Translations under genes and position numbers: made by a program
Shown: positions 227 to 63,386 of the stretch, piece after piece
Layout: the number at the start of each line of letters is the position of its first letter
Position numbering within the stretch: the first letter of the stretch is position 1
Source: Promethearchaeota archaeon
Lineage (GTDB): Archaea > Asgardarchaeota > Lokiarchaeia > Sigyniarchaeales > SOKP01
Reading direction: 5' to 3'
NCBI GenBank assembly: GCA_016839585.1
Contig: JAEOTZ010000073.1
Location: 1-63,713, forward strand
Length of the DNA: 63,713 nt
The notes under the pieces: model-generated
What the model saw: only the letters and a program-made list of their open reading frames with translations
Told to the model about the DNA's origin: nothing
Databases searched by the model: none

Positions 227-328
227 TGGGCCAAGGGAGAATCGAACTCCCGATCTCCCGCATGTGAGGCGGATATCTTTGGCGCTACATAATTAGCAAA
301 TTATCCTATACCACTAGATCATTGGCCC
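227..328 (-). tRNA. tRNA-Val(CAC) with a 30-nt D-arm intron (278-307)
   Basis: Acceptor GGGCCAA/TTGGCCC, anticodon arm TCCGC-CTCACAT-GCGGG, T-loop TTCGATT; removing 278-307 gives GGTAT|GATA, as in the intronless tRNA-Val(TAC) in this window. Confidence 0.9.
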
Positions 329-42324: not shown

Positions 42325-43540
42325 TTACTTTTGTTTTGATAAATACCTAATTTTTACAAGCAAATCTCTTAATTCCATTTTATCATTGTCAGGAGTAATG
42401 TATTTCTTTTTAACGCCCTCTGCGAAGGGAATTTTTTCTATTTTGTTTCCTTGGAGAGAGACCATATAACCAAATTCATTATTTAAAACTAATTTCATTG
42501 CTGCTAAGCCAAATCGCAATCCAAGTATGCGATCGAAACAGCTCGGAGTTCCAGCACGCATGGTATGACCAAGTACTACGCTTCTACATTCAAAATCTAC
42601 TCCATTTTTCTGAAACTCTTGCTTTAAATCATCTCTTAGGTTTAACTCGCTAACAATTATTTGCGACATATTCAATTTTACTAGTAACGGATTACCATAT
42701 GTATCTTTAGGTAACTTATCAATCGTTTCCTTAGATATTGTTTTAAAATCTCTATTTAAAGATTCTATATTTGGATATGCTCCTTCTGATGTAGCAATTA
42801 TATGATACTTATAGCCAGCATTAACTCTCTTTTTCAAAACGTCAATTATGTCTCTCTCTAAATTAAATGGTGTTTCTGGAATTAAGATTATATCTGCTCC
42901 AGCAGATATTCCACTGTACATTGTTAAAAAACCAGCGTCTCTACCCATAACTTCTACAATAAATACTCTCTGATGTGAACGAGCAGTAGTAGTGAGATTA
43001 TCAAGTGTATTAGAGGCTAATTGCACGGCACTCCAAAATCCGAATGTATAATGAGTTCCCTGCAAGTCATTATCAATGGTTTTTGGCACTCCTACTACTT
43101 TTGCATTGGCATATTTATGCATAGTATCAGCTACACCTAGAGTATCGTCTTCAGTTTAAAATAGAAACTATTTTAAAACTCCACCGATAGCTATTAAGGC
43201 ATCTATTCCTAATTCTTCAAATTTTTTAGCCAATTCTTTAGCTTTTTCTTCTTTTGAATTCACTCCTTTGAATGGGTTAGTCCTACTTGTATATAGAATT
43301 GTTCCACCAACAGTATGTAAATCATCATGTTCAGCAATATCAAGTGGAATTGTTTTATTTTCCAAAAATCCTTTCCAGCCTTTTAGAATTCCGATACATT
43401 CTATGCCTGCATCATATGCTTTTAACATTATCCCATAAATTACACTATTTAACCCAGGGCAGTATACGACAGTCAAGGAAAGTCTTGAACATGACTCCGC
43501 CGCCCGTTAAAATTCCTACTTTTTTTATTTGATTACCCAT
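42325..43540 (-). CDS. pfkA: 6-phosphofructokinase (PfkA family, probably PPi-dependent); three exons 43540-43495, 43463-43179, 43148-42325 giving 384 aa
   Basis: Spliced product reads VGILTGGG|DCPGLN...IGG|DDTLG...PKTIDND...EVMGR...LGHTMR; total 1155 nt. Confidence 0.9.
43149..43178 (-). other. Putative BHB intron 2 of pfk (30 nt, contains an in-frame TAG)
   Basis: Outer helix TATCG/CGATA, central GTGG/CTGA (one mismatch), bulges AG|T and AG|A, perfect 10-bp inner hairpin TTTAAAATAG/CTATTTTAAA. Confidence 0.8.
43464..43494 (-). other. Putative BHB intron 1 of pfk (31 nt, frameshifting)
   Basis: Central helix GCGG/TCGT, bulges AG|T and AT|A, inner CA/TG plus TCAAG/CTTGA, outer GGGCG/C(T)GCCC. 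Confidence 0.8.
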
Positions 43541-43620: not shown

Positions 43621-44190
43621 TTATTCTAATTCTATTTTCTCAATTTTCTTAAAAGTATATTTTGATTTATTTTTTGGAATTATATAACTCCCTCCTTGGG
43701 TATCAGTTATTTTTAAAGTAAACTTAAATTTCCCATCTATAGCTTTTTTTAAATTATCTAAGATTTCATCTATTTCGCTTTTTTCTGGATCATTATCATC
43801 AAGATTATTTCTATATATTAAGACAGCACTCTCAAATCTATATAATATACCTTCTACATTTGTATAATAGAAATCTGCTCTTGGACCAGGTTCTACGACT
43901 AAGTCTAATTCAGGAATTTCTAATTTTCCTGCTGGCGAACGATAGATTTTAGATTTGAGATCATCTTCATTCATTACTCGTAAAGTCATAATTCCTGGTT
44001 TTGTATTAGTAGTTAAAGGAATAACATCACTTTTATGAAAATCACATATATTACATACAAATTTTAATATGAGCATTTTGTCCCCATCGGGAACATCATA
44101 AATACTCTTAATTATATCGATTTTGCCTTCTTGACATGAAGGACATTTAAAGGAATATACAATCTTATTACTTCTTTTCTCTTTGGCCAT
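43621..44190 (-). CDS. ZPR1 zinc finger protein
   Basis: CPSC, CNIC, IPEL..EPGP, TNVEGIL, D..GGSYI. Confidence 0.9.
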   Translation of the reverse strand: MAKEKRSNKIVYSFKCPSCQEGKIDIIKSIYDVPDGDKMLILKFVCNICDFHKSDVIPLTTNTKPGIMTLRVMNEDDLKSKIYRSPAGKLEIPELDLVVEPGPRADFYYTNVEGILYRFESAVLIYRNNLDDNDPEKSEIDEILDNLKKAIDGKFKFTLKITDTQGGSYIIPKNKSKYTFKKIEKIELE

Positions 44191-44423
44191 ATAAATATTT
44201 CCTAGTTTAAATTTTTTTAAAGTTGGATCAGTTTTATACATTAATTCATAAGATCGATTTACGATGGCACCGTTTTTAAAATAAATTAATAATTATAACA
44301 ATTATTATTTTAAATTCTATATTATTGTTTCATATTGTAGTTATATAAGTTAAATCAATAGAACTTTTATTCATTGTGTCTTTATTGGATATATTACACT
44401 CAATTGAAATAAATTAAAGTCAG

Positions 44424-63284: not shown

Positions 63285-63386
63285 GCACCTGTAGCCTAGT
63301 TGGTAAGACGCCGGCCTTGAGTATTCAAAGCAACCAAGCAAGCCGGTGCGCGTAAGCGCTCGGGGGTTCGAGTCCCTCCAGGTGCG
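63285..63386 (+). tRNA. tRNA-Ser(TGA) with a canonical 37/38 intron (63322-63340, 19 nt)
   Basis: GCACCTG/CAGGTGC; CCGGC-CTTGAG|A-GCCGG; central helix CTTG/CAAG; long variable arm. Confidence 0.93.

What the first reader, a model, noticed from the sequence alone, without database searches (positions are those of the whole stretch)
43464..43494. pfk intron 1: frameshifting 31-nt BHB inside the GGGD motif
Seen (minus strand): GGGCG-GCGG-AG|T-CA-TGT-TCAAG-ACTTTC-CTTGA-C-TG-TCGT-AT|A-CTGCCC. Unspliced translation stops 16 codons after the insertion point, so splicing would be obligatory. Shifting the cut by one nucleotide gives Tyr or Val instead of Asp, so agreement with the BHB cut register is independent support. 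The TTG start called at 43476 lies inside the intron. An alternative pairing (AGTCA/TGACT) would hide the 5' bulge, which could make splicing conformation-dependent (inference).
Basis: partly seen in the sequence, partly recalled or inferred. Interest (0 to 1): 0.8.

Follow-up and report, generated by a model that had tools for sequence, protein, structure and literature searches.

The report
tRNA-type mini-intron in Asgard pfk
The only phosphofructokinase gene of this Asgard (Loki-type) archaeon is interrupted inside a catalytic loop by a 31-base insert shaped like a tRNA intron, and comparison with dozens of related genes indicates it is cut out of the mRNA by the tRNA-splicing enzymes, something papers document for only one other archaeal protein gene (cbf5).

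Summary
On the minus strand, 43494..43464 is a 31-nt frameshifting insert in a PFK-family gene. Removing exactly these bases restores GILTGGG|DCPGLN.

- central helix GCGG/UCGU
- bulges AG^U and AU^A
- outer helices on both sides

Only 4 in 10,000 positions in the window meet these criteria. A tRNA-Ser intron in the same window shows the same cut register.

The insert occurs in 10 of 37 congeneric species and on 21 metagenome contigs. It is absent, seamlessly, from the other congeners and from other genera. Intron-bearing genes stay intact under strong purifying selection (dN/dS 0.06, with synonymous sites saturated).

Two species carry a different intron sequence at the same codon, with matching exon changes (GGC:G becomes GGU:A). 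The genome encodes an alpha plus beta-like EndA pair and RtcB.

I read it as a real EndA/RtcB-spliced mRNA intron (about 0.88). No RNA data could be obtained.

This scan has already noted similar mRNA mini-introns in other Asgard genomes. Papers I could search document such an intron inside a coding sequence only for cbf5.

The parts
43495..43540 (-). pfk exon 1: ATG plus 15 codons and the first base (G) of the Asp codon; MGNQIKKVGILTGGG
   Evidence: matches the N-termini of intronless congeners
43464..43494 (-). Intron 1: 31 nt, frameshifting, BHB type ('type a')
   Evidence: same 31-nt insert in 8 congeners and 21 metagenome pfk contigs
43497..43500 (-). 5' strand of the central 4-bp helix H (exon, GCGG); pairs with intron positions 26-29
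   Evidence: The Gly14 third base is C with intron G in type a, and U with intron A in type b
43494..43496 (-). 5' bulge AG^U; predicted cut after the second bulge base, between 43495 and 43494
   Evidence: same register and same AG^U bulge in the tRNA-Ser(UGA) 37/38 intron of this window
43466..43469 (-). 3' strand of helix H (intron, UCGU; G.U, C-G, G-C, G.U)
   Evidence: Alleles vary only U/C at the two wobble positions, apart from one A
43463..43465 (-). 3' bulge AU^A; predicted cut between 43464 and 43463
   Evidence: the bulge bases vary freely among alleles (AU, UU, AC, AG)
43501..43505 (-). Outer helix h, 5' strand (exon 1, GGGCG)
   Evidence: 98-99% of cells paired with 43462 and 43457-43460, with U 43461 bulged
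43457..43462 (-). Outer helix h, 3' strand (exon 2, C-U-GCCC)
43470..43493 (-). Inner helix h' plus hairpin (CA...UG, then a variable AU-rich stem-loop)
   Evidence: The first two pairs are invariant. The register of the inner stem is not resolved
43179..43463 (-). pfk exon 2 (AC of the Asp codon through ...IAIGG plus G)
43149..43178 (-).
   Evidence: Alleles ending ...GAAC|AC fix the cut as GGAG|...|AC
42325..43148 (-). pfk exon 3, including the stop codon

Best explanation
43494..43464 (minus strand) is an archaeal bulge-helix-bulge intron inside the coding sequence of the genome's only PFK-family gene.

Proposed mechanism:
1. The pre-mRNA folds locally so that exon bases GCGG pair with intron bases UCGU, forming the 4-bp central helix.
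2. This helix is flanked by two 3-nt bulges (AG^U and AU^A), by an exon1-exon2 outer helix, and by an intron hairpin.
3. The heterotetramer-type splicing endonuclease cuts after the second base of each bulge. The genome encodes an EndA alpha subunit plus a beta-like subunit that lacks the catalytic His.
4. RtcB joins the exons, making GGA G|AC and restoring GGGDCPGLN.
5. Without splicing, translation ends 16 codons later.

What is shown: the sequence, the register, the conservation and the presence of the enzymes. What is inferred: cleavage, ligation and the identity of the enzymes acting on this mRNA.

Among congeners the intron is polymorphic. It travels with, or is replaced independently of, short 5' gene segments. 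The likely route is homologous recombination (inferred).
For: 1. Exact excision restores the motif, and Pfam profile positions are contiguous across the pieces.
2. The BHB sits at a cut pair fixed by homology alone. Its background frequency is 4e-4.
3. The register is calibrated in the same window by the tRNA-Ser(UGA) 37/38 intron: H is CUUG/CAAG and the bulges are AG^U and CA^A.
4. 26 congeneric alleles, and the 16 genomes that hold a pfk among 10 other genera of the order, have uninterrupted GGGDCPGLN.
5. 10 of 37 congeners carry an intron at this codon. A further 21 metagenome contigs carry it with open downstream frames.
6. Median dN/dS among intron-bearing alleles is 0.064 at dS 0.9-1.85, against 0.056 among intronless alleles. 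This is the only PF00365 match in the genome.
7. Median intron identity is 77%, against 46% at four-fold degenerate sites.
8. BHB core pairs are 98.2% paired, against 30-56% when slid. Three pairs show changes on both sides between the two intron types, including exon GGC:G to GGU:A.
9. Synonymous bases of flanking codons are fixed to the pairing bases in carriers. Gly14 is GGC or GGU in 10/10 carriers against 7/26 intronless alleles, where GGA predominates (16/26). Asp16 is GAC in 9/10 carriers against 4/26.
10. The EndA alpha subunit keeps Tyr/His/Lys (best PDB match 3p1z_B). A second paralogue has Phe at the His position. RtcB is present.
11. Asgard (alpha-beta)2 EndA is reported to carry the broad-specificity loop (PMC5829648).
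12. ARAGORN finds only 18 tRNA genes in this genome, 11 of them with introns.
Against: - There is no RNA-level evidence.
- The BHB conformer is 3.4-8.8 kcal/mol above the MFE in the ten alleles, and the local fold is not unusually stable (z = -0.94).
- In this allele the central helix has two G.U pairs. The outer helix needs a 1-nt bulge. The inner helix has only 2 bp before an irregularity, so this is a relaxed rather than textbook hBHBh'.
- Within the 31-nt type alone, covariation does not exceed shuffles. The metagenome rows were also retrieved with a pattern that fixes many core bases.
- The double changes all come from one contrast (type a against type b). Alleles are related and recombining, so the counts are not independent.
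Confidence: 0.88

Rival explanations
1. The insert is removed from the mRNA, but not by EndA acting on a BHB. Some other nuclease/ligase pair or hairpin-recognising system would do it. The BHB-like pairing would then be a by-product of the G-rich Gly codons.
For: The BHB is not the MFE structure. The helices are short and rich in G.U pairs. Covariation within type a is not significant.
Against: The cut register predicted from the BHB equals the one demanded by the protein. It also equals that of a tRNA intron in the same window. The exon base that pairs in helix H changes together with the intron base. No other archaeal system for excising 30-nt inserts appears in the papers I searched.
Confidence: 0.05
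2. The insert is a frameshifting insertion or decayed local duplication in a dead or dying gene, and is not removed.
For: In this allele the intron 3' part (GACUGUC) resembles the exon junction (GACUGCC). Gene callers split the gene into pieces.
Against: - dN/dS is 0.06 over synonymous saturation in carriers, the same as in intronless alleles.
- No other stop or frameshift occurs in any full-length carrier allele.
- The insert keeps its 31-nt length in 8 genus alleles and 21 metagenome contigs.
- It is the sole PFK-family gene in the genome.
- The type-b intron lacks the resemblance, which is explained by both strands pairing to the repeated GGC GGC.
Confidence: 0.03
3. Translational recoding reads across the insert, either by ribosomal bypass ('hopping', as in T4 gene 60) or by a programmed frameshift.
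For: A hairpin follows a GGA codon, and a stop lies downstream. Both are superficially gene-60-like.
Against: The Asp codon is split (G|AC), so no landing site can regenerate the invariant Asp. There is no GGA landing codon at the 3' end. A frameshift would leave about 10 foreign residues inside the GGGDxPGxN loop. The 30-nt type-b allele and intron 2 carry in-frame stops.
Confidence: 0.02
4. The gene is a true split gene. Pieces are translated separately, with the second piece starting at the TTG at 43476, and then assemble.
For: A TTG-initiated 102-aa ORF starts inside the insert.
Against: The TTG corresponds to intron positions 19-21. It reads TTA in the alleles that have A at position 21, which is about half of the distinct alleles. 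The split would cut the phosphate-binding loop and leave a 15-residue first piece. Intron 2 would add a third piece.
Confidence: 0.02

Closest known systems
BHB intron in the cbf5 (pseudouridine synthase) pre-mRNA of Crenarchaeota (Watanabe 2002; Yoshinari 2006; Yokobori 2009, PMC2738675)
   Same: A short BHB-type intron inside a protein-coding sequence. It is cut by EndA in lineages with a hetero-oligomeric endonuclease, and it shows lineage-specific presence and loss.
   Different: - Different gene (a glycolytic PFK) and different phylum (Promethearchaeota/Asgard).
- Two introns in one gene.
- Polymorphic among species of one genus, with at least 6 state changes on the gene tree.
- Two different intron sequences at one site.
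- Splicing here is not shown experimentally.
BHB intron in the 5' UTR of HVO_1309 mRNA, Haloferax volcanii (PMC7714728)
   Same: An mRNA substrate of the tRNA splicing endonuclease, confirmed there in vivo and in vitro.
   Different: That intron lies in the untranslated leader and does not interrupt codons. Haloferax has the alpha'2 homodimer enzyme.
Canonical and non-canonical tRNA introns of Archaea, including the heavily interrupted tRNA genes of Asgard archaea (bioRxiv 10.64898/2026.10.13.758758)
   Same: Same motif geometry and cut register. After splicing, the exon helix closes a 7-nt loop, as in an anticodon arm with a 37/38 intron. The tRNA-Ser(UGA) intron at 63285-63386 has the same AG^U bulge.
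   Different: The host RNA is an mRNA, so the exon half of the motif must be written in synonymous codon positions. These positions are fixed in carriers.
HAC1/XBP1 unconventional mRNA splicing (IRE1 cut, RtcB or Trl1 ligation) in eukaryotes
   Same: Works alike in outline: protein-only excision of a short frameshifting intron from an mRNA, at two stem-loop sites, followed by tRNA-ligase joining (RtcB reviews listed; otherwise my own knowledge).
   Different: The nuclease is IRE1, not the tRNA endonuclease. It is a regulated stress switch. There is no evidence of regulation here.

Membership tests
Archaeal BHB intron (EndA substrate) | [quoted passage not shown] | tested here: met
   GCGG/UCGU with bulges AG^U and AU^A in this allele. 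4/4 pairs in 9 of 10 genus alleles and 3/4 in one. 97.5-99% of cells paired.
Archaeal BHB intron (EndA substrate) | Flanking helices h (exon side) and h' (intron side) | tested here: met
   h is 1 bp, a 1-nt bulge, then 3-4 bp. h' is 2 bp, then an irregular hairpin in type a, and 5-6 bp in type b. This is relaxed rather than textbook.
Archaeal BHB intron (EndA substrate) | Cuts at the symmetric positions in the bulges give the functional ligated RNA | tested here: met
   The register predicted from the motif equals the only cut pair that restores GGGDCPGLN. The tRNA-Ser intron in the window has the same register. This is computational only.
Archaeal BHB intron (EndA substrate) | Splicing endonuclease and RtcB-type ligase encoded by the organism | tested here: met
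   Two PF01974 genes: an alpha with Tyr/His/Lys, and a beta-like one with Phe at the His position. One RtcB gene.
Archaeal BHB intron (EndA substrate) | Excision seen in RNA (spliced junction, circular or linear intron) or cleavage in vitro | not testable with these tools
Group I / group II self-splicing introns | Ribozyme core of hundreds of nucleotides; Rfam match | tested here: not met
   The insert is 31 nt. The window has no Rfam match other than tRNA.
Repeated mobile element (MITE-like insertion) | Further copies in the genome | tested here: not met
   blastn-short finds only the locus itself for both introns in this genome. The type-b intron is single-copy in its own genome, and is absent from the four other genomes searched, at up to 3 mismatches.
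Translational bypass element (T4 gene 60 type) | Matched take-off and landing codons that preserve the protein sequence | tested here: not met
   The Asp codon is split as G|AC, and there is no GGA at the 3' end of the insert.
Phosphofructokinase family PF00365 (host gene) | Full-length match to the profile once the inserts are removed | tested here: met
   Exon 2 covers profile positions 11-100 (E = 4e-22). Exon 3 covers 101-276 (E = 9e-56). Best NCBIfam subfamily is TIGR02483 'PFK_mixed'. The motifs GGDD and PKTIDND suggest a PPi-dependent type. That rests on my own knowledge and was not tested.

The most novel reading that the evidence does not exclude
The GGYGGAG|AY codons of this gene may be a hot spot where BHB micro-introns are gained, replaced and passed between Loki-type Asgard species.

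- Two sequence-unrelated introns occupy the identical codon. Each occurs on two different flank backgrounds.
- One pair of alleles has nearly identical flanks but unrelated introns.
- A third intron sits at a second GGYGGAG|AC site in the same gene.

This would mean that mini-introns of the tRNA-splicing type are actively mobile in mRNAs of the closest archaeal relatives of eukaryotes. It would be part of a genome-wide habit of protein-only mRNA splicing.
Probability: 0.35. Interest if true: 0.85.

Novelty: new member of a known kind. Interest (0 to 1): 0.7.

Why it matters
Papers I could search document a BHB intron inside an archaeal coding sequence for one gene only, cbf5 of Crenarchaeota. 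They also document one intron in a 5' UTR (PMC7714728, PMC2738675).

This case is in a central metabolic gene of an Asgard archaeon. The gene carries two such introns, and one genus holds carrier and empty alleles side by side. That gives a natural experiment on how these introns are gained, lost and constrained.

- For annotation: the gene is called in pieces and would be scored as a pseudogene.
- For evolution: mRNA splicing by the tRNA machinery may be routine in the archaeal relatives of eukaryotes. Exon codon choice is bent to build the splice motif.
- For experiments: the 61-nt substrate and two recombinant EndA subunits make a directly testable system.

Tried and rejected
No reads could be laid, so there is no result either way.
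- Plain MFE folding of 43445-43515 does not return the BHB, and its z-score is only -0.94. Constrained folding puts the BHB 3.4-8.8 kcal/mol above the MFE. Thermodynamics alone therefore neither finds nor excludes the motif.
- Covariation within the 31-nt type alone (27 rows) is no better than shuffles, for either register of the inner hairpin.
- The metagenome rows came from a pattern that fixes many core bases, so their invariance there is not evidence.
- The search for a donor or further copies of either intron found none.
- Homology between intron types a and b is unresolved. There are about 11 matches in 31 aligned columns in the MAFFT alignment. A shared TCAT..TT.AAG...CTT.A pattern can be seen by eye.
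- Conformational switch (AGUCA/UGACU): rejected as a conserved feature, since it is intact in only 3 of 8 alleles.
- Literature searches for Asgard mRNA BHB introns found nothing.

Full report
**What is there.** The minus strand of 42325-43540 encodes a phosphofructokinase-family protein in three pieces.
- Exon 1 (43540..43495) reads MGNQIKKVGILTGGG.
- A 31-nt insert follows (43494..43464, TCATG...CGTAT). Unspliced, the frame runs on for 16 codons to a stop (ORF 43445..43540).
- Deleting exactly these 31 nt gives ...GILTGGGDCPGLNSV....
- A second insert of 30 nt (43178..43149) sits in IGG|DDTLG and carries two in-frame stops.
- Pfam PF00365 matches exon 2 at profile positions 11-100 and exon 3 at 101-276, so nothing is missing or extra at the second junction. 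Exon 1 supplies the first ten positions.
- The TTG 'start' at 43476 is inside the insert.

**The motif and its register.** Protein homology alone fixes the cut pair. The bases flanking the two junctions differ, so no slid cut gives the same product. With that pair fixed, the flanks form a bulge-helix-bulge:
- Exon GCGG (43500-43497) pairs with intron UCGU (43469-43466), as G.U, C-G, G-C, G.U.
- The bulges are AG^U and AU^A, each cut after its second base.
- The inner helix starts CA/UG.
- The outer helix pairs GGGCG of exon 1 with C-(U)-GCCC of exon 2.

I applied the same criteria to every position of the window on both strands (4/4 central pairs, at least 2 inner pairs, at least 4 outer pairs with one bulge allowed). 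50 of 127,266 positions pass, about 4e-4.

The register is calibrated inside the window. The tRNA-Ser(UGA) gene at 63285-63386 has a 19-nt intron at 37/38, with boundaries set by the cloverleaf. It has H = CUUG/CAAG and bulges AG^U and CA^A, the same geometry.

The BHB is not the minimum-energy fold. It lies 4.5 kcal/mol above the MFE here and 3.4-8.8 kcal/mol above across ten alleles. That is usual for a protein-recognised motif with two bulges, but it means folding energy gives no independent support.

**Who has it.** Record titles of close relatives name Promethearchaeota, that is Asgard of the Loki type. The genome is 3.45 Mb at 29% G+C.
- Of the congeneric species whose pfk 5' region I could read, 26 have an uninterrupted GGGDCPGLN.
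- Eight carry the same 31-nt insert ('type a').
- Two carry a different insert of 30 or 32 nt at the same codon ('type b').
- Sixteen genomes from ten other genera of the order have uninterrupted frames.
- A pattern scan of metagenome contigs found 22 more pfk loci with type a, from several sediment projects. 21 of them have open frames downstream and one is cut by the contig end.
- Intron 2 is present in 8 of 36 congeners. Alleles ending ...GAAC|AC show that its cut is also GGAG|...|AC.

**The gene is alive.**
- All full-length carrier alleles give an intact 377-codon frame (counted from the conserved VGIL) once the inserts are removed.
- Among carriers the median dN/dS is 0.064 at dS 0.9-1.85. 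Among intronless alleles it is 0.056.
- The genome has one PF00365 match only.
- The intron is far better conserved (median 77% identity) than four-fold degenerate sites (46%). It is therefore either constrained or recently spread.
- Neither intron has another copy in the genome.

**Structure conservation.**
- In all ten genus alleles the BHB decomposition holds.
- Bulge bases vary freely (U/C/A; AU, UU, AC, AG).
- The two wobble positions of helix H vary only between U and C, apart from one A.
- On the ten-row alignment, 98.2% of core cells pair, against 30-56% when the partner is slid. Three pairs change on both sides.
- These double changes all separate type a from type b. The most telling one is the exon base: Gly14 is GGC opposite intron G in type a, and GGU opposite intron A in type b.
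- Flanking codons are fixed in carriers to the pairing bases:
  - Gly13 is GGC or GGU
  - Gly14 is GGC or GGU
  - Gly15 is GGA
  - Asp16 is GAC in 9/10
  - intronless alleles mostly use GGA GGA GGA GAT
- The same holds around intron 2, where carriers are 8/8 ATC GGT GGA GAC GAT.
- Limits: alleles are related and recombining, so these are not independent counts. Within type a alone, covariation does not exceed shuffles and the register of the inner hairpin is unresolved.

**Enzymes.**
- The genome encodes two EndA paralogues of about 200 aa.
- One is closest to the Aeropyrum pernix enzyme chain 3p1z_B and keeps the Tyr/His/Lys residues.
- The other has Phe where the His aligns.
- This fits an (alpha-beta)2 enzyme, the type reported for Asgard archaea with the loop that gives broad specificity (PMC5829648).
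- RtcB is present.
- ARAGORN finds only 18 tRNA genes in this 99%-complete genome, 11 of them with introns. This fits the heavy interruption of Asgard tRNA genes described in a 2026 preprint.

**How it moves.**
- On a tree of the spliced coding sequences, each intron needs at least six changes of state.
- The alleles are mosaics.
  - G055 (carrier) is 91-93% identical to intronless G011 in the exons but only 78% upstream. It is 90% identical upstream to carrier G023 but 78% in the exons.
  - The window's allele and G057 are 97% identical upstream and 79-88% in the exons.
- G053 (type b) and G023 (type a) have nearly identical flanking 40 nt, yet their introns are unrelated. Each intron type occurs on two flank backgrounds.
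- I read this as exchange of short 5' segments by recombination, plus turnover of the intron at one permissive site. This is inference from few alleles.

**Rivals.**
- A dead gene is excluded by selection.
- Bypass or frameshifting cannot regenerate the split Asp codon.
- Separate translation from the internal TTG fails because that TTG is TTA in about half of the alleles.
- A repeated mobile element is excluded by copy number.
- Splicing by something other than EndA cannot be excluded without biochemistry, but it has nothing in its favour beyond the weakness of the helices.

**Novelty.**
- A 2020 paper states that the only BHB intron reported in an archaeal mRNA besides its own 5'-UTR case is cbf5 (PMC7714728; PMC2738675).
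- My searches found no report for Asgard.
- Earlier notes of this scan describe similar mini-introns in other Asgard and DPANN genomes.
- I file it as a new member of the known kind 'BHB pre-mRNA intron'. Its added value is the exon-intron compensation and the site turnover.
- Splicing remains unproven at the RNA level.

Noticed in passing
window 43149-43178 (minus): Second pfk intron: 30 nt, with a 10-bp AU hairpin, a 5-bp outer helix ATCG(G)/(C)CGAT and a weak central helix GUGG/CUGA. It is present in 8 of 36 congeners. Alleles ending ...GAAC|AC fix the cut as GGAG|...|AC, the same exon context as intron 1.
   Followed up: partly
L041 (G053) and L049 (G061), the pfk Gly15/Asp16 codons: A different intron (30 and 32 nt, TTCATTTAA...ATGAACCA[TC]AG) sits at exactly the same codon. 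Its central helix GUGG/CCAU or CCAC is cleaner, and its inner helix is 5-6 bp. G053's flanks are nearly identical to those of a type-a allele, which suggests intron turnover at one site.
   Followed up: partly
window 63285-63386 (plus): tRNA-Ser(UGA) with a long variable arm and a 19-nt intron at 37/38 (H = CUUG/CAAG, bulges AG^U and CA^A). ARAGORN misses it without intron mode, and in intron mode miscalls it as tRNA-Ala.
   Followed up: partly
whole genome G000: ARAGORN in intron mode finds only 18 tRNA genes in a 99%-complete genome, 11 of them with introns. Most tRNA genes are probably interrupted in ways the program cannot model.
   Followed up: no
L002 (G002), L036 (G062), L049 (G061), upstream of pfk exon 1: Three congeners have no ATG in frame before VGILTGGG, and G002 and G062 have no GTG or TTG either. 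After an AAGGTGA Shine-Dalgarno-like box come ATA or ATT codons. G061 also has a GTG at the Val of VGIL. This is either a possible non-canonical start or a very short exon 1. The rest of the gene is intact.
   Followed up: partly
window 227-285 (minus): Weak 59-nt Rfam tRNA match (32 bits, full model span). It may be a further interrupted or split tRNA gene.
   Followed up: no
L009 (G006, chromosome CP070831 by coordinates): The stretch covering pfk exon 1 and the intron-1 site of this congener is withheld and reads N. Its intron-1 state is therefore unknown.
   Followed up: no
window 43621-44241 (minus): The gene upstream of pfk encodes a ZPR1-type zinc-finger / jelly-roll protein (PF22794, E = 1.5e-17).
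   Followed up: no
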